From: Balanoglossus misakiensis
Lineage: Eukaryota > Animalia > Hemichordata
Length of the DNA stretch: 64,000 nucleotides
Reading direction: 5' to 3'
Assembly (NCBI GenBank): GCA_040954595.2
Contig: CM082596.2
Span: 3,899,025-3,963,024, forward strand
Shown here: positions 5,954-58,168 of the stretch, piece by piece
Numbering within the stretch: the first letter of the stretch is position 1
How the letters are laid out: each line of letters begins with the position of its first letter
Notes under the pieces: model-generated
Database searches by the model: none
Seen by the model: the letters and a program-made list of their open reading frames with translations, nothing else
Told to the model about the DNA's origin: nothing
Made by a program: the position numbers and the translations under genes

Positions 5954-7759
5954 GCAATGCCGTCATTCTGAACTGGAGATGTCAGCCCCGTTGTAAAATC
6001 CACAGTCAGAGTAACACAAACTGATGCATCCCATCCCTTAAACACACTCCGTTTTACAGCATTGGAGTAACATGTAGATACAAGTAGCAATTACACCACC
6101 GTGTCATGTACCAGAATCGGACTGATTTTACAGGCCATCACAGGACTGACATTACAGTGACTGAATCTTCCTGAGGTTTTCTTTGTTTTGTTCGAAGTGC
6201 AAAGGCTGAACAGTTCTAATGTTGTGAATTTAAGTCTCTACAAGACTATAAACCTTGAATAGGGTACCATTGATTTTAGTTACATAGCTTTTATTATTTG
6301 GTATTCGGTATAATGGCCATATAGTGTTGTGCATGCTGTACAACAGAAATATATAAGGCCTTACTGGGACATGAAACTCCCAAATATCCCACCTAGCTAG
6401 GAGTAGGATTATGATCAGGGTAAATACCCAGGGGTAACTGTCCTAGATCCTAAACATTTATTTCAATATTTCAAGATATGTATTAGAAGCTAAAGCATTA
6501 TTGTAACCAGTTTTTTTTGTTTGAATTTAATTCAAAGCATGCTTGGGAGCCAAATAGTTCTGGCAATGTTAAATTCTGATGTTCTTGAGATTCGCACAAG
6601 CAACTGAAATAAAAAAAAATCATGAATGACAAAGTGTAATTTGATTTTATGGCAATTTTACTGTGACATAACTTTGATTTGGATGCTGAACTATTTGATG
6701 TGCGGATGTTTAAAAGAATTGAGATAATACAGCTGTGATTCAATTATCACACAAAATAGATAAATACCCCCTTATAAACCAAATCTCTTATATTTCATGT
6801 GAATTGAAAATGTAAGGCTGTGAGCATTGCAAATTGCAGCAAATCAAATGTCCCTTTCCCTGATGAAGACATCCAACTCACGCGAGAAAAGTGCGCCACC
6901 AACGACGAAACTTGAAACCACCTGCACGACACGCGTCACCTGGAGTTGTCGTTTACAAATATCCTTCATTTCTCACAAATGTTCACATTTTTCGCCGAAG
7001 AAACGTAAGAAAGCACAGAAAAGGTAGGTGCACAAAAGGAATTGTTTATATAGGGTTATCTGTCAGTATTTTGTTTGATAAATCCTCGCCTGAGAAGCAA
7101 AAAAACGAATATTTCACTCGTTTTGAGTTTCGTTTCTAATTATGCTAATTAGCAATATACGGTGGTAAAAGGTAAGTTGTCAGTTTCGGTGATTTACCGT
7201 TTCTGTTAATGATAGCAACCTACTTTTTAGAGTAAAACTTTTACTCTGGATAATCCTTCAATTATCATATACCATAAATAAGTAAGGTTTGTCGATAAAA
7301 TGTTTTTGTCCACGAGTAAATATAAGAACAAGTTTCTTTTGCACGTGTTTATCAATGCATAATATATGCTAATTTGTTCAGGAAAAGTCGGCAATTTAAT
7401 GTAATTCTTTACTAGTAACTGATAAGTTTCACATTTGACCATTTAGAATTATGATTTAGTATATTTAAAATAAACATAAACTTGCAATTTTCGGTTGAAT
7501 TTTCACTTGCATGAATGCATATAGAAGTTTTACGTGACGTCCCAAATGAAATTTCAACTTGATGCATTTCTGCGTGCATGCAGACGACCAGCACAACGTG
7601 CGGCAAACTACGAGAACCTTGTGCACATATACACATGTAGTAAATGTTTTTGTTAATCATGTTAATTAAGAATACGATTTTATCTTGTCCGCGGTATAGG
7701 TGCAGGTGCTCGGACTCGGACGTACGTACGTGAAACATGTGAAAATAAGGACCTGGGAT

Positions 7760-7919
7760 TTTAAGCCAATCAGCGCTCTGTGTTCGCGATAATCATATGG
7801 CACTTCCGGGGTCGTCAATGGGTTGGGCTTCCGGAACGGAAGGCTCCTCGGACTCGTACTACTGAAGATCGTCAGGGAATTCAACGCAAACCTAAGGAGT
7901 TATACTGAACAAAATGGCG
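7760..7919 (+). promoter_or_regulatory. CpG-enriched proximal promoter of EGFR paralog A
   Basis: NF-Y-type AGCCAATCAG (7764-7773), ETS-type CACTTCCGG (7801-7809) and CTTCCGGAACGGAAG (about 7828-7842), YY1/Kozak-like AAAATGGCG over the ATG at 7914. Local CpG density is far above the flanks. Confidence 0.6.
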
Positions 7920-8064
7920 TGGAGGAGGCGACTGAGGATGTGTATCTTTGCTCTGATCGTAATAGGACATCAACTGGTGGGAAAGAGCGACTCTGTCAAA
8001 ACCTGTCAACTGGAAATACCCAGCGATGGTGTATGTGAGGAAAGCGATCGCCCATGTCCTAAAA
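7914..8064 (+). CDS. Exon 1 of paralog A: signal-peptide-like leader plus last Cys module of domain II (EGFR exon 8 equivalent)
   Basis: [50 protein letters not shown], then A|GTAAGT phase-1 donor. Aligns end to end with B 54775-54625 and joins in frame to the L2 exon at 20411. Confidence 0.85.
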
Positions 8065-31280: not shown

Positions 31281-31504
31281 TTTCAAAATGGCCGCCAAAT
31301 TTGAGGTTCAAAATGGCCGCCTATATCTGTGCTTAGTCTATGGCATTCAAAATGGCCGCCAAATTTAGTGACTTTGAAAATCTCTATGGTAAACATTATG
31401 TAGAAATTTTACTCATAGTTCAACCACACACACCTTCCATCCCACTTGTAGACGCGAGAGCTAAATGAATATTCGGTGTTTACCATTTATTCATTTTGGC
31501 GAGA
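31281..31504 (+). repeat. Dispersed repeat copy 2
   Basis: Direct copy of 28209-28432. Confidence 0.9.
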
Positions 31505-37907: not shown

Positions 37908-40900
37908 TTAAACCGTCGTGTTTGTGGATGTTGGTAGATGAGCATGCAGGCCAGGTGGTTGTCTTAGAGGCACTTCATTGACATAGTCATGGTCTGACAG
38001 GTATTCTTCGCTTCCAGCTTGCGATAGCGAAACGAAACTGTTCACACTTTTATTTAGAGACTGCCTACTTCCCGGTAACGAGTTCAAACTATTGTCTAAC
38101 GATGGCACACTTCGCATAATCCCATTCCTGTCCTGGTGATTTGGAGTTTGTAAGAGTCTGTCAGTGACTTTTCTGCCACCGTTTGGAATTAGATCCATGG
38201 GCGGCGACTGTGATAACAATGGTTGGACTACAGTGTTGTCCCCTTTGCCATACTGAAGATATTCTGGATTGTCCATTGCTGTTCTGTGCACAACTTGAGA
38301 ATAGGTCGGATTGCCATCGTCTCTGATATCTGGGTCTGCTTCAGGTTCAAAATACTCTGCAGCAAGGAAGGGGGATGGGGGAAGGGGGCAAACAAAATAA
38401 AAATCCAATGAGATAAATGTTGACTAAACAGTGAAAATAATAAAGGCCAAACTGTTGTGAACTGCATGCTAAGGTCAAGGGTCAAATATTTAGTGGTGAA
38501 CTACATAAAATAAAGCTGCAAAATAGTTCATTTACTTTTACCATATATAACTTTCAAGATGTCAAAGATATATAAGACTTAAGTGACCTTTCACCTCTAG
38601 CAAGCAAATGGAAAAGAAGACAGTTCCATTTTTGTTAGTAATGCCGGGCAAGTCGAAATGAGTGTCAAACACGTTAGAATATTTAGTGTTTATAGCAAGG
38701 CAGTCATGTCTTAAGATGCTCTCCCAATTTGAAGAAAAAATATATTGGCTGACTAAAGAGCTACACAACTCAAAAACAATCCACCAGTCTGTGTCAAAGG
38801 TATACATTCAATTGTACAAATTCAGCCACACTGACAGAGTTTGAATGCTGAAGACACAACACTTCTGAACTCACAAGATGCTGAAAGAGAATGATTTCAA
38901 AGACATAGAGTTGACAGCAGCGACAGAGAAGAAGACAGTGACTTAAAGAAGTGCTTAAGAAAAACAAAGACTTTGCTTTTATGAACACGTCAAATGACAC
39001 ACACAACATTACTCATGCATTATGTGCTAGCTGATTCAGAAATAACAATGTATGGTTTGATCTTTAGAGGTTATTTCCTAAATGAACAGGTTACTTATAG
39101 AATTAACTAAAGTTTTATTATACGTATGGTATCCAGACACTACATGTACATTTAGCAAATGCCTGATCAGTGATAGTTGTACATAAAAGCTACTGGTGAC
39201 TCAGTCTTTTCTTGATCAAAGAGTAGAACGTCTAAGATGGTTGAAATTAGGATGAAGGAGCAAACATCACTGTTACAAATTATAATTATTTAAGTCATGT
39301 GTGATGGCTTAAAATGAATGAAGTTGTGATTCAGATGTGGTTAGCAAGTCATGACATTCATTGACCAAACAATTCTAAGTATAAATCATGCAATTATCAA
39401 TCATAATTATTTTTAAATTTTAATGTTTGACGTTTCCTTCTATTTGCTTTTATTTAAGTTTAATATTTAAGTTTGTAAAATGCATTAAAAACTCATGGCA
39501 TGACTTGACTTTCCCACTCTTTACCATCCATACTGATATGTTTATTAAAATCATTTCTTTAAACTATTCACTCTAACAAAATTTCCTTAAGATTAAAATA
39601 AAAAGAGTTGCAATGGAGAGAAAGACAGAAGACTTCTATTTCAGATTCCTAACATTCAATGAAATTACAACTACTTTTAGGCTATAGGTGAGTGTTTTAA
39701 AGTATAATCCTTTTTTCTGTTTGTTTTGGTTTTGTGTTCTGTGACAACACCACAGTCTCACCTGGGTTAGTAGGTGGATAATCAGTTAAATTCCTGTAAT
39801 GAGGAGCTGTTGATATCTTGATAGGAGAAGCCGGAGATGGAGCTACATACTCCTCCAGCTCTGCTTGTGGTGGTACATAGACTGTGCAGTTAAAAATTAA
39901 CAGAAAACATATAATATCCATGAAAATATATAGAAAACTCACGGAAATCAGCCATGCAGATTTTTTTTTATTTGAAAATGTTCAAGCCGGGACTTAATTA
40001 TGATAAGAAATGGACGTAAAAAAAATTATCGGTTCTATTTATTTTTTCTTCATGCTTTGTAGTTTCATGCATGGAAATTTCCAGGAAACATTTCGACTCT
40101 AACGAAATACACATACATGATACATGAAGCAACTTCTTTACAGACACAGCAAGCACAGAATAATACAATTACTGAATAATACAATTACTGTACATGGACA
40201 TGCAAAGACATGGGACAAAATACAAAAGAAGGCAACTGTGCACTTTATCACACATGCACATATATCAACAATAACATGGCATTATTTATAAGACACGCAT
40301 TGACAAAAAAACCTTTTTGTTGAAAGCAAGACGCTCTACACTGGTTGACACTGAGTATGAGGGCAGCAAAAACATTTTCATGAGGAGTGGTTGTTAGGGG
40401 CTACATGTCACATGTCAGTCACATGACCAACATATGACTAATCACCTGGATGACCCATGACTGCTTACCTCTTTGTTTCTGTGCCTGTTTCAATAGTAGT
40501 GGATCAGTGCTGTATCTGATACTGTCTTCCTTCTTCTTAGGAGAGTGCAGTTTATCTCCCATGGTGTATTTAGGGCTGCCGATTCCCTCGCCACCTTCCG
40601 CACCATTCATATCCGGTTCATGTCTTTCATAGCTATACACAGTGTCCAACGGAGCTCCCGGCTGATATGAGGAAGAAAGACAGGATTCCTTTAATATCAA
40701 GTGTTTGCAAAAGTTCCTGTTGAGTATTGAGTGGAGTAAATACTTACAGGTGTCATGTCAATGGCTGTGTTACATATATGGGTAATTTTACCAATGGTCT
40801 GGTATCGCCATAGTTACAACGGCTGTTGGGTGATGCTTGTGAATTGCACTGGGCGCAAATGCTTACAGGCGGCCATTTTGAATTTCAAAATGGCCGCCTG

Positions 40901-43900
40901 TAAGCATTTGCGGCCATTTTGAATTTCAAAATGGCCGCCTGTAAGCATTTGCACCCAGTGCTCTATATCAGGGTGACCCCAATTTTATGACTTTGATTTT
41001 ATTCGAGACGCACACTACCTCAGTGCTTACCGGTGGTGTGTGAATGGCCATGTGTGCATAAGTTGTTGGGTATCCTGGCCCGTCACTTCCATTACTGCCA
41101 CTAAATGTAGACACAGGTTGAAGATAGTCCTCTGCATCCATGAGCAACTCTGGGCCCTCGTCTGGGAGCAGACTTCTGTAGAACTCTGTCCGTGAAGGGC
41201 TAGGCAGTGGTTCTTTGCCATCATTCTACACGAGGAAAAACACCACAATTTAGTTTCTCTGTCTAATGTTATGGAACAAGAAAAGACACACGCTGATTTA
41301 AGTCAGCGTATCAAAAAGAAAGTCAAGTATGTCTTACCTCAATTACCAAGTAACGCTGTGGATCTCGCGACATCTTGGTAAATTCTTCAACTAGTTCCCA
41401 GAAAGTGGGCCGGCTGTCAGCATCCAACATCCAACCTGTGAAAATAGACATATTCAGTGTTCCATTTTCTTAAAAAAATTCTTTTAATGTGAAAATTTGT
41501 GCTGTTTTAGACTCAAACAAATGAGTTTTTCATTTTATAATACATATTTTTATACTCACATTTCAACATAATCATGTACACATCGATGGTGCAAATCTGG
41601 GGTTGGGGCAACCTCTCACCAATCTCAAGCAAATCAGGCACATCACGGGCCTTGACCCCTTCATAAGGTTTACCCCCAAAAGTCATGAGTTCCCATACTG
41701 TGACACCAAAACTCCACACATCACTTTGATGGGTAAACCTCCTGTGTGTAATACACTCCAATGCTAGCCATTTGATTGGCATCTGAAAGCAAAAAATCAA
41801 CATTTTATTATTTCTACCGAATGCTATATACTTATAGTAATGATAACCATATACTCTTAGCCCATCTGTTTTTCATTATCATAGTAGATTAACATTTATG
41901 AATTAATACCCTGAAAAATGGAGTCAATATATTCAATATTCACCCTTTCTGACCTAGGGATGACCTTGAATTATTATTAACCCACCTTTCCACCTTCTGC
42001 TTTGTATTCTTCTTCATTAATTTCGATGAATTTGGCCAGACCAAAGTCGGTAATTTTCACTTTAGTAGGACTCTCCACAAGTACATTCCTGGCCGCCAGA
42101 TCGCGATGGACCAATCTGTGCTCTTCCAAGTACACCATACCTTTGGCGATTTGCGTACACCAATTGAGAAGATGTTGGGAGCTGACCTTGTCTTTGTGCT
42201 CACGGATGTAGTCCAGTAGCGCTCCCAATGGCATTAGTTGTGTTATCAACATCATTTTTTGAGACATGCACACGCACAACAACCGAACCAGGTGTTCATG
42301 ATTCACTGTTGCCATAACGTAAGCTTCCTGTAACCAAGGAAACAAAAAAGGCTCTGTCAGTTTACTTTCGAACATCTGAAGGTAGACAAGGGTAAGGCAT
42401 AAGATATACACATGATGCACCATTTTCTCAAATAGTTTTGTCTTGGTAAAATTTGTTAAACTCAAAGAGGAAAGTCCTACCTCAAGAAGTTCTTGATTGG
42501 CCTTGGTTGAAATACCATCCCTGATCACTTTGATTGCTACAGGAATACGTACTTTGTCACCTTCTGGCAACCACAATCCCTAAAGAAAAATATAGAAAAT
42601 GTTAAAAGTCTGTATTTGGAAGAGAGAAAAAAATAAAGCGTTAATTGTCTGTCCAGTGTCTGGAGATATATCAGAGAAAGTTAAATACCTTGTACACTGT
42701 TCCAAAGGCACCAGATCCCAAAACACCACCCTTCTTCAATTCTGTTTCTTTGATAATTCGGAGGAATGCTTGGTTGGGAGCAGCACCACTTGGTGTCAGA
42801 GGCTATCAAGTGAAATGATCATGCCTATGTTAACATATATGGTACATTGGATTTTCTTGAAGAGAATAGTTTACAAAAATATAGAAAAAGCCCCTCCACT
42901 GTTATCATCAAGGACTAGTTTTCAACCAATGTTCCTATGTATAGTTCATGTATCAGACTATCTAAATTTGATCATTATTAGGAAACAGAAAATATCACAT
43001 CATGTCAACCATGCAAATGTGTATATGTTCTCCATGCTGTGCTGTTTATCAAGACATTCACAGTGAGTTGTTTCTCATTTAATCTTAAAATATAACATTC
43101 CCAGAGCAACTAGCTCCACAGATTCAATCAGACATAAACACCTCACAAATTAAAATACACTGTGTGTGCTAATTACCTCAGCAAACGTGTCCAAAGGCTG
43201 CAACAATGCATGCAAAACGGAACAAGAAACAAATATAAAATTAGGTTTAACAAACTAACAGTAACAACAAAAACATAACACAACACAAACACAACCAAAA
43301 CTTAACAGAAATTTAAAAGATTTTTAAAATAGCTATTCATACTTAAAAACACATATACACCAATGACCATGTTGACGAGCAAATACTAAGTACGTGCTCG
43401 GTTTCAAATAGTATATAATGCAAGTTGTTAGATTGATTGATTGATTGATTAAGACACTGACATTGCCTTATTGATTGAGACAGAACGGGGAAAGGGAAGG
43501 AGAGAGACAGTGAGGAACAAGGAAATACGGAAGAGCCAGAGCTAATTTTTGTGATTATAAGTTACCTCTAAAATCACGGCAGACACATTAATAGGTGAAC
43601 AAAATTACCACACACACATGCGTAACATTGGCAGGTGTCTGTGCCACCAAACACATACCAGAAGTTAATTCCTACAGCGGGTGTTTTAAACGTTGACTTA
43701 CATAGTCTAAGTAACTCTTCCTCTTCTGATCCAGACTTCTCTGTCGCTTGTAATACCATATCAGGATCACCGCAATGACAGCCAGCAAGACAAACCCAAC
43801 CAGGCAACCAACTATGATAGGAGTACTGTCAACCCTTAGCCAAAAGATATTCAAATTTAGTCACTTTGAAATACATTCATCAGTTCAGATTAGTCACCTT

Positions 43901-46900
43901 GAAAATATTGTGTTGTGAGAAAGTCAGTGCACAAAACCACTCAGCCGAATCACCAACAGATTTAACCCTTTCACTCCCATTTCTCTTTATAGAGGTCCAA
44001 TTTTACCATAGAAAACAATGGGTTTGGACTGAACCATGGTGGTGTGGAAAGGGTTAAGTCAGGATATTGATTGATAAATCGAGAGCATACCGTTGGACTC
44101 CTATGTTATGACTGGGTATGGGCAGGCAGACGCCTTTGTCTTCCACCTCTCTGTCACCAAGGCAGGCTTTAACACACTCGTTTCCAGAACGGAAGTTTTT
44201 GCAGTTAAAGCAGGATGACCTCCTCTCATCAAAACAACCATCCAGACACTCCTCATGGCATGGTTGACACAGGTTCTTGGTGTTGGGAAATGTATTGACA
44301 GTGCAGTTGCTGACACATACTTTGTCCTCCACTATAAAGGGTTTATCCACTGGACATTCTGCCACACAGAACTGAAATAAAAACACCATAAAGGAATTAA
44401 GTGCATTGACTCGAGCAAAGAATGATGAAAGTGGCTGTATTACAATTTGATAAATATAGTGTCAATCCACCGTATCTTACATATATGATAAATTCAAAAG
44501 AATTCACTGATATTAAATGATAATTACATCCGAATATAGGTTCTATTTTATGAAGTTATGAGAGTCAGACTTTTTCTGTGAGAACATGATTTTTGTTTCA
44601 TGAAATTTATACAACACTCACTGTCACATTCCCCCTGGTCTCATCCTGCATTGGGATTTCATAATTCTCGCACTCCACACACTGGGTCGGATCGCCTCCA
44701 AGGCAACCTTGGCTGTCCACACATTCTTCATTGCACCTCCTACAAATATTATTCTCATCCGCGTAGTGGTTGTTGTAACAGTGTTGAACACAGACTCCGC
44801 CCTGTTTGTAGTTGCGACACTCCACACAGCTGTAGGGACCCTTGTCTGTACAGGAAAGGCATTCCTCATGACACGCTTGACACACCTGATAAAAAATAAA
44901 TAAAGAGATGACGATAAACTGTAAAACGCAAACCAAACAAATCACAAACATACAAAAACACTGAGACAGACAGAATGCTACACCTAAATATTCATAATCC
45001 TGTTATCACGCTAACTATACATTTTCCTTTACATAACCATAAGAAAGGCAAAAAACAAATCAAAACCAAGTCTTTGACTTCAATATGAGTGCAAAAAAAT
45101 TTGACTTACAAGCATGTCTTTATACTTTCCAGTCAGATGCATTCTTTTGAAGTGTTGTTCTGGACATTCACTCTCCGATTCCAAGCACCTTATCTACAAA
45201 AACAGAATCATTTTACGAGACTATATGAGACACATATTATCTGTTTGCAGGACAGTTACTATTTTAATTCAACACAAGGGATGTAGTCGACACTCACAGC
45301 ATGAAATAAAATGAATTTGAAATTATTTCATATCAAATTTTCAAGATTTTTTCTAATGGTACAAGGACAAACTTACCAAAGTATCATCTACATCGAGCAG
45401 GACTTGATAGCAGGAAGAACAGGCACCATCACTAATAGTGTTACCGGGACCAGTACACCTTTGACGGGAAATCAACAAATGAACATTTAATGATCACATT
45501 TTTTCCTCTTTAAATTACAAGAACCACAAGAAAAGCAATAACTTGTTCCATTTTATAGTTAATTGTTCTGTACACATCACTTTTTTCAAGATCTCGATGA
45601 GAGATTCCAACTTCAACGTGGAACCATCTGCAAAGCTTCTTCTCTGTATACCTACCCTGCATTTTCTCCTTCCAGTTTACAATTGCGATGGCACTCTAGG
45701 CACATGGAGTCTTCACCAGGATATTTAGCAACTGGACACTCCTCTTTACAAAATGGACCATCCTGCATATGCTTGCAGCTTGTACAATTATCTGCTCCCT
45801 GATGTAAAAATTAAAAGCCACCTCTAGTCAGTACATTGTCAATCGTAATGATCAAGTTCCATGTGAAGCAGGGCTGGCTCACTCTTTTTAAAGCATCATC
45901 TTGTATTTAACCCTTTTGCGAATTCACTGTTTTTATTTTAAAGATTTAATTTCTGAAATTATGACTTACCGGTCCACTACATGACCCCAGACATTCTGGG
46001 TGGCAAAGCCCACACTCAGTTTCGGAAATAAGATATTGCCTGAAAAAGATTAATAATAAGAAACATTACAAAAAAACACTAAGACCTATGCAAATATACT
46101 TTAATCAACTGAATACTTTATGTGTATTAAAGATTCTCAAAAATGTGTGAGTGGACTTACTCTTGATCAAGTTCACACTGTTCAACACATTCGTCTCCAA
46201 GCCAGAAATTCTCACATTCAATGCATTCATCTGCACGCGGTCCCCAACATCCGATACTTGTGCACTGCTCATGGCAAACAGCACCTTCATCGCCTGTGTT
46301 GTGATGAATTCATATGAAAGAGAGAGTCATGTGTCAACATTTTGGACGTCAAATATGCCTCCCACCACTGGCAATGCATCTTCATTCCAAAGGTTATTAT
46401 GCCTACTATGAATCTCAAATGCTTTTGTCCTATCCCTTTAACCATATTAAAAGGCTCAAATTGTACAAGAAGAACAGTTTGAAAGTTTAGAAAGAAATCC
46501 ATGTACAAGGCTACAAAAAAGGGCTATATAGTCTACTCACGACATGTGTCCTTAGGCCTGTTCCTTCTCACTGATGCCTTCTGTAAGTTAGGTTGTTCCA
46601 GAATGTCCGCAAACATACCAGAAGTCGCGTAGCACAGATAATTATTCTCCTGTACAAACACATTCCCCATGCTAATCTTTCTGAGAGACACCATTCCAAG
46701 TGAACGCAGTGTGGTTCCCATAATGGACAAAGCGTACCCTCTATGAAGCAATACAGAAAGAGATATATAAATCACGTTATCTTTCTTGAAATATGAACCA
46801 CCATATGTCGTCAATGAGTGGAGCAGATGACAACACTTTTTATAACTTATGGTTTACAGTCACATCTCACTCAAAAGAACAGCGATGCAAGAAACAAATC

Positions 46901-49900
46901 ACATCATGATAATCTTACTCGTAGAGATCACGTCCTTGGATTACTTCCAAATTCTGCAAGACCGACAGATCTGTCTGCTGCGGAGCCGAATGCAGAATGG
47001 TAACATATCCCGTTACTTCTCGGACCGTCTTGAACACCTCAAGTTCTCCCGGTGATATTCCAACAACACCATAGTATGGATCACTGAAAACAAAGATGAA
47101 GCAAACGTAAATGCATGCTATCTCCTGAAAAAATGAAACCATGGATAATGCATGTCATGGGTGCGTTAAGGCAGAGGCACTCAGAAAACATCTGCTTTTA
47201 GTCTCAGATTGATGCTCAGATCTCAAAATCTACCTGGGCTTTAGCAATGAGGCTGTATCATATTTCGACTTCTACATTCACTCTGCAAACTGACGTTGTA
47301 CAATCTGTATGACTTACCCATCAAAGGTGCTTGGCGTGATCATGAGGCTCCCGTCGATGACTGTACAGTTTTTGAATTTAGCGATATTGCGCTCATCCAC
47401 CTGGTCGTCACTTCCAAAATCTTCGTGGCCAAACCCAGGACATGCTGCAATGAAACAAAACATCCAACACAACAGTCAGTTTTGGGTCTCACTGAATAGA
47501 CGTACAATGAATTATCATGAATGAAAATGACTGTTTACTTTTCAACGAATATCCCCAAAACTTCGAAGAAAAAAACACCTTTTGCCATCTTGAGAAAGAC
47601 AGCTTTCAGAGCACTCACATGATATTTATTGCCTGTACTATCCCAGTTATTCCTTTACCAGAACACATGCATGGAATAATACATGAGGAAAATGCCATTC
47701 TGTTGAAGGTAATCACTTCTCGTCTATATTGCATTGATGGTTTCCACAAATTGAATCATTTCAAATATTACTTAATATCTCAACCTCTAATACCCAGTGA
47801 CACTGGTAAATCATCACCACGGGCATAACAGGTCGGTGATCAAAGGTTACATTCTAATATGATACTCTCTACAGGTAGCAAGATCATTATCTATGAGTCT
47901 GAAATTTATTTCTAGGAAACTGACTGGGTTGATCATGTAATTTAACATCCCTGTGGATGCAGCGATTGGTCAGGTGTTATGGCTTTCGATTCCGGAGCAA
48001 TTTGCGCTGATTTTGATGATAACGTTGACTTTGGCTTCCAGATTCTCTGAGGCAAACCCTTGACATGTCTATAAGGTCAGAGGTGGAACAGCCACCGCAT
48101 CAATTGCATTAAACTGCTACATCTTAAATGAGTGATGTTCTCCCATGTAATTTTCCACCTCATTGAATTTTAATGCAACTGTCAGTAACCGTCTTGAAAA
48201 TTTGCCAGTCACCAAAAGTTAAAAGCTGATAAACTAAAGACATACGGAACATTTTATCGGCAGTCTGGTCATATCAGGTTGGTCAATTTAATTTAAACTT
48301 TTATCAGCAATCACAATTTGTTGGGGTTGGGGCACTTTCGGCAACGCAGATCTATCTGCATTTTATTTAACTCCCACGGGAGTACAGACAATAAATAGCC
48401 GTGATTAGAATTGATGGCGTTTTGTATTTGCTTTGTTGAGCTGAGCGACACAAATAAACCACAATTCTGCATATTTCGCTATCGAAGAAAATGAAATATA
48501 ACCATATTTAATGTTTTAACCTGAAACTAATTGTGCACATAACCTTCTTCTTTATGTTGCTCGACATTTTCAGTTAACATTACATGATTTGGATGTTTGT
48601 CATTTCTTTCCTTTTATGAGGTTATAAATAACCCCCAGTGTCTGTAACCTAAACTCTCAACAGCCAAGCCCAACAGCTATAAACTAGAAAACTGAAAAGT
48701 GTGATGGCCTTGTAGATCTGATGTCCTAGTTTCGTTTACGTACACGGCAGTTTAAAAGATCTCAGACTCCCACCAGGGAGACAGGCAACTAACCTGTTAC
48801 GAACTGTCCACAATAATTACAAGGACATCTCCAAACATTTGAAAAAGCTATCAAACCTTCCTTCCTACCCTATTTATATACAAGCTTATCACTGGAGTAC
48901 ACTGCATGATACTTCCTTGCCCTTCCCCGCATAAAAGTTTACATCTCTATCCTATCCACTTTAAAAAATTAAATTCCATTCTACTTTATGCACAGGTGAG
49001 GGATATAGTGCCTGTTCTTTCACAGCTATAAAACACAACAACCCTTCAAGTTCACCGCCATGGTTTGGTCCAAATCCATTGTTTTTCTATGGAAAAGTCG
49101 GACCTCTCTAGAGGCAAATGGGGGTGATAGGGTTGAACAGGAGACGTGATCATTTCCACTGTTTACCTGTATAAGAGGAACGCAGCACATAAGATTTCAT
49201 TTCCCATGGTGCACTAGCACAGGCACCATCGGGAATCATAAAACCTGTCTTAAAATAGCCTTGAAGACGGTCCATCCATCTTGGGAATCTAGGCCACTGA
49301 CTCAGCCTTGACTCGACACACCTCTTCAAAACTACATTTGTTTTTTCTATCAGCCTTGTGTTAAACATTGCTAATCAACCTCTAATTCCTCTTACTCATT
49401 TCAAAGTGTTTTTCAAGCGTTATCTCGTTCACTTTATTCTTGCCAATTCATTTATATCCAGCAATACGGACACAGGCCTGTGAATTCTGCCGCTATACCC
49501 TACGTTTTATGATGCTCATAAATGTTTATTTCACATATATGTGAAAAACTACATGTCATATATCACACACTCTAAAAGAATGGCTGTAATGTGTTACTGA
49601 ACTTAGTACCTGATACGGACCCATCCCCAGGGTTTTATCCCCCAGTCCAGTGGCAATAACTTTGACATGAATATGTAAGCTACAACTTTGCCACTCTTGT
49701 TCTTCAGATACGTCTTAACCTTACGTACATCACAAAAGTATGCCATAGCCATTTACATGTTATTTGTATTCTAGTGGAGAGAAACGGATGTGCAAGTATG
49801 CTCACTCAACTGTCACACACAGAACAAAAATCATCCTGATAATCTTTAAATTGACATTTCTCTTTTAGTTTTTCCATCTCTGATTCGTAACTCCTAACTC

Positions 49901-52705
49901 TTTTTTTACTTGTGTGCATGGGTTTGTATTCTATTATCTGAGCACAACCTAATGGATTAAGCTGACTTCTGACCCTAGTAGAATTTCCCTCAAAGGAATA
50001 TACCGTGGGTAATTAATGAAGCCAAATAGGGTTACCTGATTACTGCTGATTACTGCCGGTGCATGAAAAATAACAATTTCACAAGGCTATTTCTCCCAGC
50101 ATGAAATAATTCCAATTTTGGCGACATTTACCCAAATAAGCCCTTTCCTGTTTTGTTCAATTTTACTGCACTCATTCTTAACAACAAGGCTCTACTTATA
50201 CACTGTGATAAACAATCAAATATAACTTGTTCAGATGCTACTCTCTATTTTCAATGTTAAAATTAATTTCACCTTCATATTAATATCTTATTTTAATACC
50301 CTAACCTTTCATAAAACAATGTTTTTCCATCAACAGATTATATTGATCTAGGTATCCTCATAACACCACTTATCTTCAGATAGAAAAAATACCATCGAGA
50401 CTTCTCATTGATTTGATGAGGACACAAACGAAGGTCATCACTTTCCCACCTCTGTGTGTATGGTGACTGTCTTCTCTAATGCTATGATCAGTCAGCTTTT
50501 TAGATTTTTTTTTTAAAGAGGAGTTTCGGTTCAGTTGAAAAGGCTATCTCTCACAATTACTCAAGCCAGTGTGAGGGTCCCCCTAGGCAATCATTCTGTC
50601 TGCTCTGTGGTTCTAGTTCCACCGTGACGCAATCTCTTCAGGGACTGTTTATTCGTCTCCCAGACAGCAAAAGTTAGTCCCTAATAGGCACTGACAAGGG
50701 CAATAACAAAGCAACCTCAGATCAAGAAAATGAATACCGCATCCTGTAGGGGTGTCTCGTTCAGAGGGAACCAAAGACGACTCCATTTAATTCAGTCCAA
50801 CAGGCTTTACACCCAACCCCCCCTTTTACCACAACTTCACCTGACAAATTTAATAGGATTAGCGAAAAACCCAGGACACGTGACTCCCAATTAGAAGCAT
50901 ATGTTCCATCATACAATGCTATGTCCACAGTTTCTTCTCAACATACGGATTCACAATGAAATTCCCACAGCTCAAGCCCAGGCCTCTAAACCCAACACCA
51001 GAAAACAGGTACATATAAGTAGTCTAGTATCTAGCCATGTTTTTTTCTGTTAGTTTTGGAAGCAAAGTGGATAAAACACGGCTAGATACTAGACAAGAAA
51101 ACAGGTGGACTGGCTTAAAACCCTGCCCAGTGAGTGACTCATACTGAAAGTATTACCCTGTTACCACGTCCCCCCCACACACCATAAAATGGGTGGAGAT
51201 CATAAAGTCATAGCGCCCACTGACTGTACGTGAGTCAGTTCAACAGGTCTTGACCTGTGGTCCTGACATTCACAGCCCCCACAGCAAGACTCTCTGATGC
51301 TCTCAATGTTGTAGGGTTTCTATCCTTATTACTCCATGAATACAGTACGGATAGGCAGTAAATATGCCTTCTGCTGTCTCTGTGATTGATTGTAATTTGT
51401 TGACAACTTGAAAGCACACACAAATGCACAATAAATCTTCCAAATACACCAGAATTAATGCAATCAATGAAATTACTTTGAACAAAGAGGTAGATTAATC
51501 AAATATGCAAAACAAGTGTATCTTCAAATTTTGTATCGTGTTTATTTTTAGATACTCTTGGCAACGAGACATTTGACCATAAATTTATATATGACTAAAC
51601 CTTCCCCAGAATGTGGCTGATTTGATCCCCTTGCCTCTGCCCCAGGACAACGCGCTGTGTAATTTTCATGCTCAGAGCACGGTTCATGCTTCTTCAGTGC
51701 ACATACTGAGGATAAATTGTGACATATGAGGTTTGAAGTTTAACGATCATTCTGGAAGCTGAATACATAATGTATGCCTTTTATATTCTCGCAAACACAG
51801 CAAAAAACAGTTAACTGCAAAATATTGCTCTTCTGAGAAAGGAACGATTGTAGAGGTTGAAGGCTTATTGCCATTCTCAGCGGTGAAATACACACACGGC
51901 CAACAAATTTTACTTAGTGGGAATTAACATAAATAAAGACAACGGGAAGAGAGTGAAAGTGGACATATATTCTGACAGTGTTGAATTATTGAGAATAATC
52001 AATATTATATCGGCACTTCGATAAAAATCTTGCAGGTGTGCAGCATTTACGTGATTTGCAAAACTAACAACTCCGTCCCACACTGATGTGTGTTTATAAT
52101 CCGCTAAACTCATGAGTATGACGTGCATGGCTATGAAATAGTCCAACCTGGGTCACAGTGTGAAACTGATATCCCTGGAAATCTTTTTGTGAGAAATTGT
52201 ATTAGTTATGGCACTTAGACTTAAAAGAAACTTACTGTTAAAATGTTTGCGGGTATTCATTTTTTTTTTAAATCCTAGTAGAAGCAGCACTAATAAACAT
52301 GTATTAAACAGAATGTGCAAAATGATGTATAGAAAATAGAGGAACTGTCATTTCATATTTTCTTTAAGCTTCACTTCATATGATAGATTATGTCTGACAT
52401 TACTCTCAATCTATTTCAGATCTGGATGAGAAATTCATTGTTGGGAAAAAAAGTCCATGTCTGGCTTAAGTTTTCTAACATACAGATTATGATTAATAGG
52501 ATTCTGTACACACCACACTGTCAGGGTGACTAAATGTTAAAGTATGGAGAAATATTGTTAGAATGTTTGATCAACAAATAAATATTTTATCACTTTTATG
52601 AGTACTTTAACAGATGACTGGTATTTGGTGCACATAGATCAACGTTGTTTGTAATTTATAAATTTCTGGTTATCTATATTTAATTTTCATTTCATTTCTT
52701 TGTTG

Positions 52706-52765
<60 letters not shown>

Positions 52766-55700
52766 CCCCCCCCCCCCTTCACTCTCTCAGCAGAGGAACT
52801 TCGGAAGGTACAAATAACACAAAAGCCTTCTAGTTAATCCACTCCACACTGAACAAGATTGAGACCGAAGCAGGAATGTAAAATGTAATCTTGGATTTTC
52901 CTAGCATACGGTGGGTGGTGCAGTGTACTGGCTTGGAGGCACCGGACATGAAGTAGTCAGTCGGAGGCAAAAAAAAAAACCAACCTGACATAACACAGTG
53001 GACATCCATTCATTACACTCGCTGACAGTTTAATCTCAATGTTGTAGACAACTCTCCAACTGTGAAGCAACTTCCAAGAAAAGGTTCTGCGCCGGCAGAA
53101 TTAATTGAAGGGATTATTTCAATGTGGATTATGATTTACGACATCCTTTGATTAATTAATCACAAATAAATGATCAAATTTGACGTGGCATTTATTTTGT
53201 AACTGCTTGATTAGCTAATTAATATTTATTTGTTTCATTCCGGTCGCCCGGTTTATTCCGGCAGTTTCTGTATAATCCTATGAATAATGAAAAGGAATGA
53301 CTGTAACATAACGACACAATTACATCCTGTAGTGAAGATCAGGCAGCCACAACACTACCTTTTAGATTTCATAATGAAGATCCCAAACTCCTGCCTGAAT
53401 GCAAATACATCAAGTTTACGATAAGCCACTGCAGATATCTGCCGATTCTTCATCAGATTTCCCACAAATCCCGCACACAGCTGAACAAATTCTCGTTTTG
53501 ATTCACTCTAGGAAATTACTCCCATTAAAAAGGTGGGGTAATTGATAGTACTTGTGAAGCGATGTGAGGAAGGGCATTCGCTGAATGGAATATCAACCCA
53601 TGATCATCTATGCAGGAGCAGTCCATCCTACCCAAGTCATCTATGATATGCTTAAATGCTAATACGAAACGCAAACCCATAAAATGAATGATGAGAGCAC
53701 ACACTTCAAATTCCTGATGTTATGTTTTCTAAAGATGGCCCTTTTGACAGTCACCAGTGACACATAGAGATTAAATTCTTTAAGGTGTGTGATTGATGCC
53801 TGCATATCTGTGTGAAGTATGTGCATAATATAATACACATGCACACACATATACATGTTTATACAAATACTACAGAACACTACAGGTAGAGTTAGAAATG
53901 CAAGCCATCAGTCTGCAATGTATTTGCTGTTTCGACATTTCCTCCACTTGATGTAAATCAAAGGTGACAAGAGCAGGGAAATAATTGGATTTCTGATCAA
54001 AAACCCCCACAAACCACTAAAAGGAATCTTCTTGTCAACACTTACTCCCTGACTGAAATGTTACAAACAAGACCCTGAGTACAATCATTCGAAAACAAAC
54101 GGAAAATTCTTTCAATTGAAGGTTACATGTACCACTGGGAGCCTGAAAATTTTGAAAGGAAACCAAAACAATGGAAGGAAGGAATGAATGCAGAATGCAT
54201 TTGCCTTCTATTATATAATGATTACCAAAAGGTGGATGTATCTTCTAAAGGACTGTGTTTGTTTCGTATTGGTAAATTACCTTTAAACCACCAAAATAGC
54301 CTTTTACGAGTTTCGTCACTGACAAAAATAAACTATCTTTAATATCCTCTTTAGTAATTATTTTTTCTCAAAAGTTTCTTCAAAAATCAAACAGCAATAT
54401 CGAGCTGTCTGACGAGCAAAATTTTAAACAAGTGTCTTTTTCCCACTTAGCTTTGTCATATCATAACAATTTCTTGACCTACACATAAGGACAAAGCCCA
54501 CACAAGACTTGTTTAACATTCCACAGTTCAAGTTGGCTTCGGAGTAAACTTTGACGGGACGCACTAAAAAGAGTACAACAAATACTACCAGTCTCAAGGA
54601 CTTTCTGCGAGAGGTTTTACTTACTTTTTGGGCAGGGTCCTTCACACTCCTGGCAAGCGCCATCTTTGGCGATTTTTCCCTCCGGACACGACTTGACACA
54701 GCTGCTCTGGTCCACCAGTAAATGTTCTACAAAAGCAACGAAGATAAAGATCCTTAGCCATCCTTTCCGCGCCATGTCGTACTATTATGTGTCTCCCGAC
54801 TACTTAACTCTCCCGTGATTCACCACCGTCTTGCGACAAACCTCCTGGTGTCTTAGAGGGCCTTGACGATCTCAAGCAAGAGTGACGTCAAGACAGTCAA
54901 GGCAAACAACCAACGCCTATCCTACACACCACCTTTTGTCAAGACAATGACGTCTTTTCAGCGCGAGTGAAAATTGACAGAGTGCATCCACATCTGGCAA
55001 GGGTTAGATTCTTGTGACCAATCTAAGTACATGAATGTTTCATTATGGGTATCTCATAGCAACAGAAAGGCATAGTGGTGGATTGCTCAGGAAGTTTATG
55101 ATAACTTCTCATGTTTCAACTGTGTTTTAAATTATAGTGCATTTCCATCCCACCCCTGTCCTCCTACGTGTACTCAGACCTCAGTGGTATCTTCCAGTTG
55201 GGACTGCTGTATTAATGGCCCCAACTTGTTTTTTTCTCACTATATGTGGTATCAGTCAAGAACCGAAATCAGAAAGCCAGTTTTACTCTACATTACTGCT
55301 CACTTGCTATGTGCTTCATAATGCACTTTTTATCGGATTTAGGTCACTGTCCAGTCGGTTTTAGTACTAATACAAACTTATCGAAAAGTAAAACAGCTAG
55401 CCACTTAGCCAATCCTCATGAGATTTCATAATGTAACCATGGTGAAATTGCCTATCTTGGAATCTGCCTCTTTTAAACCAGTGTAATCTGAAGCAATTTC
55501 CTTCAGTTCAAGTGAAACATCTACATTATTTGTATGGAAATAAGGAAGACCGTTGTTCCTAAGGAATGTCTGGAAATGGATTTACAAGTTCATGCAAAGC
55601 TGTGACAGGTTCTTTAATGGCAAAAACAGCTGCAGTCACACACGAATAATACAACCCCCCAAATAAAATAATTGCAGTTTCCTGAGGATGAGTAAGTCAA

Positions 55701-58168
55701 TGTTTCCTGCCTTTTAGCGAAATTCACACTAGAAGACTTTAAAGCACCAATTACGCTACAATAAAATGATTGCTTTCACAAGTGCCGAGCAAGGAAGCCC
55801 ATCTTTCTGTACGTCCTACAGTGAATGCCTACTAATGGTCACACATGAGTTCTCCAGTAACATACTAGAAACCTGTGTTGCCATGGAAACAGTTAATCAA
55901 ACAAAACTGATTTCCCCCAGGGGAATCTGTGCATTGATTGCGAGGTTAGATTTCTGTGACGTCCAGAATTACAACACAAAAACCAGTAATTGCTCATGTT
56001 ACTGATCAATAGATAGGGGCTGAGGCTAACCTCGTCTGAAAAATTCCACATCCTACTAAAATGTCCTTCAACAACTTGAACAAGTTCGGCCAGACATGTT
56101 GACCTACCTGGGCATTCCTTGACGCACTTTGAGCCGTACGCATATTTGGCGTTTGGATTCGGAACATTCTTGAATGCTGCTGGGTCGTAAATGAAAGGAT
56201 CCGGACACTCACTGACACAAGCTCCATCATCATCGAAATTCAGACAAGCCTAAGAGAGAGAATGGAATTCATTTTTCATTAGTTCATTTGGAAATAATAA
56301 AGTGATAACGTCTGTATGTATGTACATCCAAACACTGAAATATTCCTCGTTTCCACTTTCAGATAGTTTACATAATTTTCAATCACATAATTTCGAAAAC
56401 AAAGACAAGATACTAACTTCACAGTACTGACATGTAGAATGAACATTATTCATTGCTGAGATGCATTATATCATACATCATATCATATCAAATGTTTCAA
56501 GGAGATATCTTTGAGTTTAGAAAGTTGTATGTTTATACTAACCAAGCAGTCGGTATTTGATGGTCCAGTGCAGCCAGCAGCACAGCTCGGGTGGCAACAG
56601 TCTTGCAGGCTGGGACCGCTACAACGGTGATCACACTGTCCAGCACATGTGTTCTTTGTAACTACGGAAACAGAAGATAATTGTTGGAATTAGGATTGCA
56701 GGATACACATTATATTCAAGTTACTTACAGACACATATCAGTATATGGTGGAAGGCAGTATCATATATGTTGGATAGAACATCATCTCATGCCTAATGAT
56801 CAATGAATAAGATATTGAGACTTACTAATTTGGCAGTTTTCTGGTCCTGAACCCCAACAGGAACCAGATTCACACGACGGATCACATGTTTGAGGACCTA
56901 CAAAAGTGTAAAAAGAAATTATTTCAGAGCAAGAAGAAGACTGTGAAGTCTAGCAGATAAAAACTTTATACTATTAGTTTTAACATTATACTTTGAATTA
57001 GATTTGATAGCATTGTTATCATACACACAATAACCAAACAAATGTTACTATTTCATGGCCACTTTATCAAGTAATGTGTATCTTCTATTTTTTTTAAACT
57101 TACAAACTGTGTTTAATCTTTCACCCGGGTATAGGGCCACAGAGGCCCCTTCTGGTATGATATCACTCCAATTAACTGTGGAAATGTAACACAATTCTCT
57201 ATTTTGGGTGATGTTAACTCCTCCAGTGATGATTTCTGTGCATGGAAAGAAAGACCAAAAGAAAAGATCAATGTTAATGACAGAAAAAAAAGTCTTTCAA
57301 GATGCGGTCAGTCATTCTCGTTTCTACCGTACAATTTTGAAGTTACAACTCCAGAGGGAAACACTGCCGAGTGCGTATCCAGAACTTTTAACACCAGAGG
57401 GCTCCCTTCACCGCACCAGACCTGACTTTCACACCACTGTTCCGCCTTTCACGTACATTCACAGACACAATGACACCAGGGTAATATGCTCAACACTGGA
57501 AGTAGCAAGTACTTAACATCCGGCCAGTGTATTGTATACAAGTCATTTGTCAACAATTATCATGTACCTATGCCGGAACCAATCAGTTTTCTTTCTTCAC
57601 TTTTTTTAAAACTACTACAAGGCATGAAGTTGTTCACATAGTTCTTTATCTGATGTTCTAGTTTGTTCTAAGTTTAGTCCAAGTTGTAAAGCGGCAGCAT
57701 AGTTTTCAAGCAACAAACATTCACTTCAGACAATGCTTATATATTATATAAGTATCGTGCTCCCATAAGACCCCTTTCTGCTTGGGATGGCCCATTTTTA
57801 ACACGTAGTAAATTAATATTTCCTACCTTTTAATGAAGTCAACTGTAACTCCTTAAGGCCAACACCTTGATGTTCTTTGTCATAGTTCAAAACAACAAAA
57901 AGTGCATTTCCTTCGTACAGCGAAACTCCTCGTATTACCCGCAGATTCTTCAAAGGCACTACGTCGACATTATTAAGCCCAATGACAACATAACCGCTGA
58001 CTTCTCGGATGTCTTCCAGAAATGACAAATCACTGTTGCGATCTAATATGTTCGTGATTTCCAGATTTCCATCCACATAGGTACAGTTTGAGTAACGCAG
58101 TTTGAGTTGTTCATAGTGTTGGACCTTATCTTCAGGTCTTGAAAGATGGTTCGAGGTTCCTTTACAAA
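37908..58168 (-). CDS. EGFR: Full-length EGFR/ErbB-family receptor tyrosine kinase paralog B, 5'-partial (signal-peptide exon not found), 27 exons, about 1480 aa visible
   Basis: Minus-strand exons 58168-57827 and 57235-57104 (L1); 56897-56826, 56661-56543, 56249-56108 (CR1 with dimerisation arm [25 protein letters not shown]) and 54726-54625; 47444-47318, 47083-46919, 46740-46541 (L2); 46293-46161, 46039-45970, 45798-45656, 45458-45377, 45193-45110, 44885-44622, 44371-44091 (Cys-rich); 43834-43702 (TM); 43197-43177; 42802-42689, 42579-42481, 42327-41986, 41782-41560, 41435-41338 (kinase); 41225-41031, 40661-40469, 39881-39762, 38356-37908 (tail with DNPEY, YVNE, ending TTV*). All GT-AG and in frame. 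Confidence 0.93.
40846..40961. repeat. Nested palindrome in an intron of paralog B
   Basis: GCACTGGGCGCAAATGCTTACAGGCGGCCATTTTGAA-T-TTCAAAATGGCCGCCTGTAAGCATTTGC, internally duplicated, ending ACCCAGTGC. Confidence 0.9.
43177..43197 (-). CDS. 21-nt juxtamembrane microexon of paralog B (PLDTFAE)
   Basis: TTGCAG|CCT TTG GAC ACG TTT GCT GAG|GTAATT; restores E-PLTPSG as in vertebrate EGFR. Confidence 0.8.
52706..52777. repeat. (TCA)n microsatellite of about 19 units followed by poly-C
   Basis: Directly visible in the sequence. Confidence 0.97.
54625..54775 (-). CDS. Putative alternative first coding exon of paralog B (internal start, short isoform)
   Basis: GAC ATG G start at 54775 reads [16 protein letters not shown] through the acceptor TTTTGTAG (AG at 54728-54727) in frame into [34 protein letters not shown]. 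It is 151 nt, the same length as A exon 1, and homologous to it. Confidence 0.72.
54780..54970 (-). promoter_or_regulatory. Candidate internal promoter of paralog B
   Basis: Perfect CRE TGACGTCA at 54883-54890 and a near-CRE TGACGTCT at about 54949, in a locally CpG-richer patch 100-180 bp upstream of the internal ATG. Confidence 0.4.

What the first reader, a model, noticed from the sequence alone, without database searches (positions are those of the whole stretch)
54625..54900. Hidden internal start codon and signal peptide overlapping a splice acceptor in the full-length EGFR
Seen: on the minus strand the intron end before the exon-8 equivalent reads ATG GCG CGG AAA GGA TGG CTA AGG ATC TTT ATC TTC GTT GCT TTT GTA G|AA CAT. 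The polypyrimidine tract doubles as the hydrophobic core (IFIFVAFV) of an in-frame leader. It aligns with A exon 1 ([30 protein letters not shown] versus [31 protein letters not shown]; both 50 codons plus 1 nt), and A keeps the vestigial acceptor (ATAG|GACAT). Introns elsewhere in the ectodomain region show no obvious A/B similarity, so conservation of this stretch implies coding function. Inference: the ancestral gene made both a full-length and an EGFRvIII-like isoform from an internal promoter (a CRE lies 110 bp upstream), and A arose by duplicating only the short transcription unit.
Basis: partly seen in the sequence, partly recalled or inferred. Interest (0 to 1): 0.92.

Follow-up and report, generated by a model that had tools for sequence, protein, structure and literature searches.

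The report
Acorn-worm EGFR hides an EGFRvIII-shaped start
In an acorn worm, the last 49 bases of an intron in the full-length EGF receptor gene match the first exon of neighbouring short EGF receptor genes, so the gene likely also makes a naturally shortened receptor cut at the same point as the glioblastoma mutant EGFRvIII, although no RNA confirms this yet.

Summary
Observation confirmed. The window holds two EGFR paralogs of an acorn worm close to Ptychodera flava. B (-) is full length. A (+) starts at the exon-8 equivalent. In B an in-frame ATG (54775) lies 49 nt before that exon's acceptor and reads [16 protein letters not shown]. Met plus a hydrophobic stretch is common at acceptors (3 of 44 others), so that alone proves nothing. 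The homology does: P. flava has annotated short genes whose N-termini align across B's acceptor (8/16 leader identity, E 1e-14). The duplication predates the split of the two species. Neutral drift of B's leader gave such a match in at most 10 of 4000 runs at calibrated divergence, but a codon test is inconclusive at the low divergence estimate. A CpG-rich patch, a 211-nt ATG-free stretch and a long next intron resemble A's promoter. All four short-only proteins lack the cysteine that dimerises EGFRvIII. Best reading: a likely live hybrid first/internal exon (0.68). No RNA or orthologous intron could be examined.

The parts
54727..54775 (-). In-frame leader of B (16 codons + 1 nt) that is also the polypyrimidine tract and acceptor AG (54728-54727) of the intron before the exon-8 equivalent; ATG in gacATGG context
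54625..54726 (-). Exon-8 equivalent of B (102 nt): internal exon of the full-length mRNA and inferred 3' part of a first exon; carries Glu17 and Cys26 of the short form
   Evidence: query 18-50 aligns with residues 8-44 of the EGFRvIII ectodomain chain 8UKV
54776..54986 (-). Putative internal promoter and 5' UTR: CpG-rich, with no ATG for 211 nt upstream of the leader ATG
   Evidence: 11 CpG (o/e 1.0) in the 200 nt before the acceptor, highest of 45 acceptors; ATG-free 209-nt windows are 42 of 6893 intron windows
54883..54890 (.). TGACGTCA (CRE consensus; label recalled), the only full copy in the window
56108..56249 (-). Exon-7 equivalent of B, ending in KECP; holds the inferred partner cysteine of Cys26 and is absent from the short form
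   Evidence: pairing inferred from human C295-C307 (PMC3757403)
47445..54624 (-). 7180-nt intron after the leader exon, the longest complete intron of B (the other 25 are 109-1405 nt); the orthologous intron of A is 12346 nt
48584..48654 (-). 71-nt non-coding element shared with A at 84.5% identity, in the orthologous intron and the same orientation
37908..58168 (-). Gene B: full-length EGFR; 27 exons modelled from the L1 exon to the stop, one open frame; its first exon was not found in the window
7914..8064 (+). Exon 1 coding part of gene A (50 codons + 1 nt): homologue of B's leader plus exon 8, with vestigial acceptor AG at 7964-7965; Glu17 replaced by Gly and Cys26 by Ser
6751..8500 (+). 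CpG island around A's start (o/e 0.8-1.4 against 0.49 for the window)
20143..20213 (+). A's copy of the shared intronic element
7914..29690 (+). Gene A: short EGFR lacking L1 and most of cysteine-rich domain II; 19 exons modelled, 973 codons without a stop; kinase motifs intact; short C-tail (last exon not fixed)

Best explanation
The end of this intron in the full-length EGFR gene B likely doubles as the start of a second, shorter mRNA: transcription would begin in the CpG-rich patch upstream, translation would start at ATG 54775, and the splice-acceptor tract would serve as the core of a predicted signal peptide. Shown: the open in-frame leader, its homology to the first exons of four short EGFR proteins in two species, the promoter-like composition, and the loss of Glu17 and Cys26 in all four short-only proteins. 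Inferred: the signal peptide runs into exon 8 and is cut after SSC|VK, the first site in B that fits the (-3,-1) rule. That cut would remove the cysteine left unpaired by the loss of exon 7, giving a receptor of domain-II tail, L2, long cysteine-rich region, membrane helix and active kinase, without domain I or the dimerisation arm. Such a receptor would bind EGF-type ligands weakly or not at all. It would most likely act as a ligand-independent, low-level signalling or partner subunit for the full-length receptor, not as a disulfide-locked dimer. Also inferred: this short unit was duplicated once near the base of the Ptychoderidae, giving A and its relatives, which then improved the signal peptide at exon-8 positions that B cannot change.
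For: (1) Homology: best of 7228 AG-ending 49-mers. Similarity begins at the ATG, and the 30-150 nt upstream score at shuffle level. Codon positions 1/2/3 are 0.69/0.75/0.50 identical, like the coding part of the same exon (0.68/0.74/0.47). (2) Second species: P. flava short proteins P0024, P0141 and P0144 start with the same kind of leader. P0144 residues 1-51 align from 54775 across the acceptor at 60.8% identity, E 1.3e-14. Its leader scores 33 against B's; 0 of 1239 ATG-started open 16-mers from the window reach that (max 13). B's leader is 5-8/16 identical to the short-gene leaders, which are 5-6/16 identical between the A and P0144 lineages. 12 of 16 B positions match at least one short gene. 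(3) Age: window A groups with P. flava A (100/100 ectodomain, 98/98 kinase; 95/96 in the hemichordate-only tree). A/B ectodomain synonymous divergence is large: 45 of 101 four-fold sites identical, codon-model dS 3.1. (4) Neutral null: ATG kept, frame open and score >=42.5 in 0.1-0.6% of 1500 runs at settings that reproduce the decay of ordinary intron ends. With a generous starting sequence, >=12/16 matches arose in 0-10 of 4000 runs at 0.55 substitutions per site and 13-58 of 4000 at 0.4. (5) Promoter-like context: highest CpG count of 45 acceptor-upstream segments, and a CpG profile around the ATG like A's; 211 nt free of ATG; purine at -3 and G at +4; the only one of 10 long acceptor-upstream Met leaders with this Kozak context and 3 basic residues in the first 8; long next intron with a shared element. 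(6) Cysteine parity: B-short has 59 ectodomain cysteines from residue 17 and 58 after a cut at 26; A types have 58-60.
Against: No transcript, 5' end or chromatin data were seen, and no orthologous intron. NCBI's annotation lists no short isoform of B in P. flava (13 of 13 isoforms 1475-1526 aa), Glandiceps (6 of 6) or Saccoglossus (2 of 2); a first exon that only extends an internal exon has no unique junction and may be missed (inference). The two-branch codon test does not reject a neutral B at dS 0.8-1.1 (2dlnL -1.3 to 3.2) and rejects it only at dS 2 or more (8.7-24). The four-fold-site estimate (about 1, by hand) and the codon-model estimate (3.1) disagree. In-frame Met with an open frame occurs at 15 of 45 acceptors, and 3 of the 44 others are also hydrophobic. 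Four other acceptor ends are conserved at z 3.6-4.5 for reasons that need no coding. A and B have exchanged sequence in the kinase region (dS 0.20 in one exon). B's uninterrupted hydrophobic core is only 8 residues and is followed by Glu-His; its 11-residue hydropathy (2.36) is below that of the short genes (2.71-3.29) and the true B-type signal peptides (3.29-3.46). The A promoter and the B patch share no alignable sequence upstream of the ATG.
Confidence: 0.68

Rival explanations
1. Back-transfer: the leader and promoter evolved in a short duplicate after a partial duplication and were later copied into B's intron by gene conversion. B may or may not use them, and the ancestral gene made only one receptor.
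For: A and B have converted in the kinase region. B's leader is closest to P0144 (8/16, same length), a type whose orthologue is not in this window and could lie elsewhere in the genome.
Against: B's exon 8 begins [15 protein letters not shown], identical to P. flava, Glandiceps and Saccoglossus B and unlike every short gene, so a tract would have to stop at the acceptor. B's leader shares different residues with different short lineages, which fits descent from a common ancestor rather than a copy of one donor.
Confidence: 0.12
2. Chance pre-adaptation: the ancestral intron end happened to hold an ATG and a T-rich tract that only the duplicate used; B keeps a decaying relic, or used it once and no longer does.
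For: Met plus a hydrophobic stretch is common at acceptors. The codon test is inconclusive at dS near 1. At 0.3 substitutions per site, 62-248 of 4000 neutral runs pass. No short B isoform is annotated.
Against: Divergence as low as 0.3-0.4 per lineage would leave ordinary acceptor ends far more alike (simulated mean z 1.35-2.7 at 0.4) than the observed 0.55. CpGs are kept in and upstream of the leader while introns are depleted (o/e 0.46).
Confidence: 0.12
3. Non-coding constraint: B's intron end is conserved as a splicing or enhancer element, and its reading frame is incidental.
For: Two ectodomain or juxtamembrane acceptor ends are conserved at z 3.6 and 4.4, one with TGCATG before a 21-nt micro-exon. 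The CpG patch could be an enhancer.
Against: Identity starts at the ATG, follows codon position, and includes a purine-rich, CpG-containing 5' half that is atypical of the other acceptor ends. The match is to protein-coding first exons of a second species.
Confidence: 0.08

Closest known systems
EGFRvIII (de2-7 EGFR) of glioblastoma
   Same: Begins at the exon-8 boundary: query 18-50 aligns with residues 8-44 of 8UKV. Lacks domain I and the domain II dimerisation arm; keeps L2, the cysteine-rich region, membrane helix and kinase. A model of P. flava A matches the EGFRvIII ectodomain 8UKW over 337 columns, TM 0.62 by target, rmsd 14.8.
   Different: Germline and conserved across two species, not a somatic deletion. 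Uses a new leader taken from the intron end, not exon 1. The free cysteine that EGFRvIII needs for its covalent dimer (C16/C307; PMC3757403, passages seen) is replaced in all four short-only proteins and would be cleaved off in B-short. A types also have a short C-tail (62-72 residues against 313).
Hybrid first-internal exons
   Same: One exon serves as internal or first exon, with the start at or up to a few hundred nucleotides from the 3' splice site (PMC11797052, passages seen).
   Different: Here the acceptor tract itself would be translated as a signal peptide ('signal peptide' and 'start codon' occur 0 times in that paper's main text), the site is CpG-rich unlike most human cases, and the unit also exists as separate genes. 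Use as a first exon is untested.
Receptor kinases shortened by intronic starts or truncation (ALK-ATI, tr-Kit, HER2 p95/611-CTF, v-ErbB, Xmrk) - recalled, no call
   Same: An internal start or a duplication gives a receptor kinase freed from normal ligand control.
   Different: As recalled, those forms lack all or nearly all of the ectodomain or keep it whole. This one keeps half of it and would still enter the secretory pathway through a new leader.
Invertebrate EGFR family survey (PMC4914847)
   Same: B is an ordinary enteropneust EGFR; the survey's table lists one EGFR for Saccoglossus kowalevskii (passages seen).
   Different: Ptychodera and 'truncat' occur 0 times in its main text; its supplements were not read.

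Membership tests
EGFR/ErbB receptor (gene B) | L1 - furin-like - L2 - cysteine-rich - membrane helix - tyrosine kinase in one open frame | tested here: met
   Pfam on the P. flava orthologue
EGFRvIII-like architecture (A types and B-short) | N-terminus at the exon-8 boundary; no domain I, no dimerisation arm | tested here: met
   (one L-domain stretch in P0144; two in P0141, read as one domain split by the cassette insert)
EGFRvIII-like architecture (A types and B-short) | Intact kinase motifs | tested here: met
   GxGx[14 protein letters not shown] and DFG in window A, window B and two P. flava A proteins; P0144 has no kinase as annotated
EGFRvIII-like mechanism | Free N-terminal cysteine (C16) forming a disulfide-linked dimer | tested here: not met
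   Ser, Thr, Ile or Gly at that position in 4 of 4 short-only proteins, with even cysteine counts in the three full A types. Present in B-short, but at the predicted -1 cleavage position.
EGFRvIII-like mechanism | Ligand-independent phosphorylation and no ligand binding | not testable with these tools
   needs expression and assay
Hybrid first-internal exon | Working 3' splice site used by the long mRNA | tested here: met
   The only acceptor that keeps B in frame; the junction matches annotated B proteins of three species
Hybrid first-internal exon | Transcription start at or upstream of that splice site | not testable with these tools
   No RNA data available; indirect signs only
Cleaved signal peptide | Basic n-region, hydrophobic core of 7-15 residues, small residues at -3 and -1 (rule recalled) | tested here: inconclusive
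   Net charge +3, 8-residue core of hydropathy 3.45, sites SSC|VK and VKS|CP; core interrupted by Glu-His; SignalP not available. In the P0141 model residues 1-30 are low-confidence with a helix at 8-16.
Conserved internal start in B orthologues | In-frame ATG and leader at the same intron end in related species | not testable with these tools
   No genome held; the metagenome scan found no hemichordate locus

The most novel reading that the evidence does not exclude
Ptychoderid acorn worms evolved EGFRvIII on purpose. One EGFR gene makes both a normal receptor and, from a promoter inside an intron, a ligand-free half-ectodomain receptor whose signal peptide is written in the splice acceptor and whose cleavage removes the oncogenic free cysteine. 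This unit then seeded a small family of dedicated short receptors, showing a tolerated, regulated version of a cancer lesion and a general route by which polypyrimidine tracts become signal peptides.
Probability: 0.5. Interest if true: 0.85.

Novelty: new variant of a known kind. Interest (0 to 1): 0.68.

Why it matters
The firm part is already unusual: two acorn-worm species carry germline EGFR genes cut at the same exon boundary as EGFRvIII, and they have removed the cysteine that activates the tumour form. They are a natural experiment on what a domain I/II-less EGFR does without the covalent dimer. If B's start is live, the parent isoform and its daughter genes sit side by side. That makes a case of an isoform turning into separate genes, with named residues (Glu17, Cys26) that were constrained in the shared exon and freed after duplication. 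It would also show a splice-acceptor tract doubling as a signal peptide, which annotation pipelines are likely to miss.

Tried and rejected
No genome is held for the window. Sequencing-run search on 37101-47100: no RNA holder listed; none was listed, which is not evidence either way, so no reads were laid. A protein search with an A cysteine-rich exon scored none of 3 candidates; the kinase exon found the A orthologue instead. No A-type protein of Glandiceps or Saccoglossus was among the best 120 listed of 1551 hits, which is weak evidence of absence. The profile search returned 14 proteins: P0144, P0003, two repetitive proteins I set aside (P0145, P0152) and 10 short unnamed ORFs that read through the same intron end in unknown organisms. 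Nine of the 10 were aligned (P0149 left out); none has a leader like B's, and all begin with Met by construction, so they say nothing on conservation. The metagenome scan gave 2 weak loci covering query 23-48 and 25-39, which I did not use. Hydrophobicity of the leader was rejected as evidence. Upstream promoter homology between A and B was not found. Reading the 71-nt shared element as a coding exon fails on a stop in B in the one frame I read by eye. An independent origin of P0144 from B was not favoured: the short genes group at 91/92, and AU p is 0.037-0.065 for the alternatives; with echinoderm outgroups P0144 fell at the base instead. Rfam found nothing in the window. The sigma-70 scan is not relevant to an animal. 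The AlphaFold model is poor for the kinase (pLDDT below 50 from residue 631) and was used only for the ectodomain. Earlier scan findings: none.

Full report
What the window is. It carries the 3' part of an aminopeptidase gene and two EGFR paralogs that face each other tail to tail. The closest database relatives are EGFRs of the acorn worms Ptychodera flava, Glandiceps talaboti and Saccoglossus kowalevskii. The window genes group with P. flava at 100/99, so the organism is inferred to be a ptychoderid enteropneust. Gene B (minus strand) gives one open frame over 27 modelled exons from the L1 exon at 58168 to the stop at 37908. Gene A (plus strand) gives 973 codons without a stop over 19 exons from 7914, and no L1 or early cysteine-rich exons were found for it.

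The observation. It is as described. The exon is 102 nt (54726-54625) and the ATG lies 49 nt before its acceptor. Against A's first 52 coding bases, B's 49-mer scores 42.5; among 7228 AG-ending 49-mers on both strands only A itself scores higher and the next best is 36.5. The similarity starts at the ATG: 30, 60, 100 and 150 nt upstream are reached by 81-242 of 300 shuffles. Identity by codon position is 0.69, 0.75, 0.50 over 16 codons, against 0.68, 0.74, 0.47 in the coding part of the same exon.

At 15 of 45 acceptors in the two genes an in-frame Met reads open into the exon, and 3 of the 44 others have a hydrophobic stretch as strong as the leader's, because T-rich tracts encode Phe, Leu, Ile and Val. 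Other introns are not free of A/B similarity. Four of 18 other orthologous acceptor ends score z 3.6-4.5 (leader 5.6), and a 71-nt element is 84.5% identical in the intron after the leader exon. One kinase exon has dS 0.20, with flanking introns alike, which indicates gene conversion.

A second species. P. flava has annotated short EGFRs on the same 44-Mb contig as its full-length gene: P0024 (XP_070569485.1, 1010 aa), P0141/P0142 (XP_070569572/3) and a partial P0143, plus P0144 (XP_070569575.1, 543 aa, no kinase as annotated). P0024, P0141 and P0144 start with a leader followed by the exon-8 equivalent. P0144 residues 1-51 align to B from the ATG across the acceptor at 60.8% identity, E 1.3e-14. 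B's leader is 7/16 identical to window A, 5-6/16 to the P. flava A types and 8/16 to P0144; P0144 is 5-6/16 identical to the A types. So B's supposedly intronic leader is as close to these N-termini as they are to each other across lineages, and 12 of its 16 positions match at least one of them. Using P. flava proteins alone, B's leader scores 51.5, and 0 of 1239 ATG-started open 16-mers from the window exceed 23.

Age and order. Window A and P. flava A form a clade (100/100 ectodomain, 98/98 kinase), so the duplication is older than the split of the two species, whose B ectodomains are 70-72% identical. In a hemichordate-only tree rooted on Saccoglossus, the short genes group at 91/92 (not starred) inside the ptychoderid set; with echinoderm outgroups P0144 falls at the base. 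One origin near the base of the Ptychoderidae is the simplest reading but is not firm.

Is B's leader under selection? This depends on neutral divergence. Four-fold sites in the ectodomain are identical at 45 of 101 and two-fold codons at 83 of 148; the first gives roughly 1 substitution per site in total (by hand). A codon model gives dS 3.1 and rejects 2.0 (2dlnL 5.5). A two-branch codon test that ignores stops and indels is inconclusive at dS 0.8-1.1, borderline at 1.5 (3.4-8.0) and rejects a neutral B at 2.0-3.1 (8.7-24). A simulation with acceptor constraints and indels was calibrated on 10 ordinary ectodomain acceptor pairs (mean z 0.55). I left out the pairs at z 3.6 and 4.4 and the six kinase and tail pairs; with the 3.6 pair the mean is 0.83. 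Settings that gave mean z 0.41-0.88 kept the ATG, the frame and the score in 0.1-0.6% of 1500 runs; at 0.4 per lineage, which gave z 1.35-2.7, the figure was 2-14% (13 of 15 settings finished). A second simulation, starting generously from A's own leader, gave 12 or more matches to any paralog in 0-10 of 4000 runs at 0.55, 13-58 at 0.4 and 62-248 at 0.3. A neutral relic is therefore unlikely but not excluded.

Promoter-like context. The window is CpG-depleted (o/e 0.49; introns 0.46). The 200 nt before this acceptor hold 11 CpG (o/e 1.0), the most of 45 acceptors (next 8 and 7). Only 12 of 3245 intron windows reach that count: this site, the start of A's first intron and a tandem repeat. The CpG and GC profile from -200 to +200 around the ATG resembles A's. 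There is no ATG for 211 nt upstream, which holds for 42 of 6893 intron windows of 209 nt, this intron included. The only TGACGTCA of the window lies 108-115 nt upstream; the CRE label is recalled and the motif was noticed after the fact. The next intron is the longest complete one in both genes (7.2 and 12.3 kb) and carries the shared element.

Mechanism. Query residues 18-50 align with residues 8-44 of the EGFRvIII ectodomain structure 8UKV, which places B's Cys26 on EGFRvIII Cys16; I infer this from the end points, since that alignment was not printed. In EGFRvIII this cysteine is freed by loss of its partner C295 and is needed for the covalent, active dimer (PMC3757403, passages). All four short-only N-termini have Ser, Thr, Ile or Gly there and Gly or Val in place of Glu17, while B keeps both, as do P. 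flava, Glandiceps and Saccoglossus B. B-short has 59 ectodomain cysteines from residue 17 and 58 from residue 27; A types have 58-60. The first site in B that fits the recalled (-3,-1) rule is SSC|VK, and all four short genes have a fitting site at residue 26 or 27. I infer that the signal peptide extends into exon 8 and that cleavage removes the orphan cysteine. The weak step is B's short core followed by Glu-His; SignalP could not be run. Domains I and III normally bind ligand together and domain II carries the dimerisation arm (PMC13323776, passages), so the short forms would be poor ligand binders without the arm, with intact kinase motifs. A ligand-independent or partner role is inference. 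A model of P0141 is unstructured to residue 30, ordered over most of the ectodomain, and matches EGFRvIII 8UKW at TM 0.62 by target with rmsd 14.8.

Against and untested. No RNA, 5' end, chromatin data or orthologous intron could be examined. None of 21 annotated B proteins in three species is a short isoform. Back-transfer from a short paralog, a relic and non-coding constraint remain as rivals (0.12, 0.12, 0.08).

Novelty. Hybrid first-internal exons are a described class in humans (PMC11797052, passages; 10.1101/2021.05.27.446076, listing and start of abstract only). Receptor kinases shortened by intronic starts are recalled, not checked. Six searches listed no paper on short hemichordate EGFRs or a natural EGFRvIII-shaped paralog, judged from titles and abstract starts; the library lacks most subscription journals, and genome-paper supplements were not read and may bear on this. 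The metazoan EGFR survey lists one Saccoglossus EGFR and does not mention Ptychodera in its main text (PMC4914847, passages). The P. flava short proteins exist in NCBI only under automatic 'EGFR-like' names. Verdict: new variant of a known kind; interest 0.68; live internal start in B 0.68.

Noticed in passing
window 20143-20213 (+) and 48584-48654 (-): 71-nt non-coding element, 84.5% identical between A and B in the long intron after the leader exon, where synonymous sites are largely saturated; a candidate shared enhancer, though a shared repeat is not excluded.
   Followed up: partly
window 26645-27896 (+) and 41553-42804 (-): Gene conversion between the inverted paralogs in the kinase region: the 342-nt exon has dS 0.20 and neighbouring intron sequence is alike.
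   Followed up: partly
window 26340-26360 (+) and 43177-43197 (-): 21-nt juxtamembrane micro-exon in both genes, with a conserved acceptor end containing TGCATG (RBFOX-type motif, recalled).
   Followed up: no
window about 21994-22055 (+): Probable cassette exon of A inside the L2 domain with two cysteines, matching the insert in P. flava A proteins; no match at the orthologous place in B.
   Followed up: partly
P0144 (XP_070569575.1, P. flava): A 543-aa short EGFR ectodomain with the same kind of leader but no kinase as annotated: a possible decoy, or an incomplete model. No separate orthologue in the window.
   Followed up: partly
window 29490-29690 (+): A types have a C-tail of only 62-72 residues and read YRNL where B reads YRSL, a YxN motif of Grb2 type (recalled).
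   Followed up: no
window 34250-35000: CpG island (o/e up to 1.24) between the 3' ends of A and B, containing AAAATGGCG; no gene assigned.
   Followed up: no
window 446-5950 (+): Exons of an M1-type aminopeptidase (puromycin-sensitive type by recalled motifs), ending about 2 kb before A's start.
   Followed up: no
window 29014-29269, 29911-30483, 32313-32526, and 28209-28432 / 31281-31504: Tandem repeats of about 51, 33 and 54 nt, and a 224-nt direct repeat at 99% identity, near A's 3' end.
   Followed up: no
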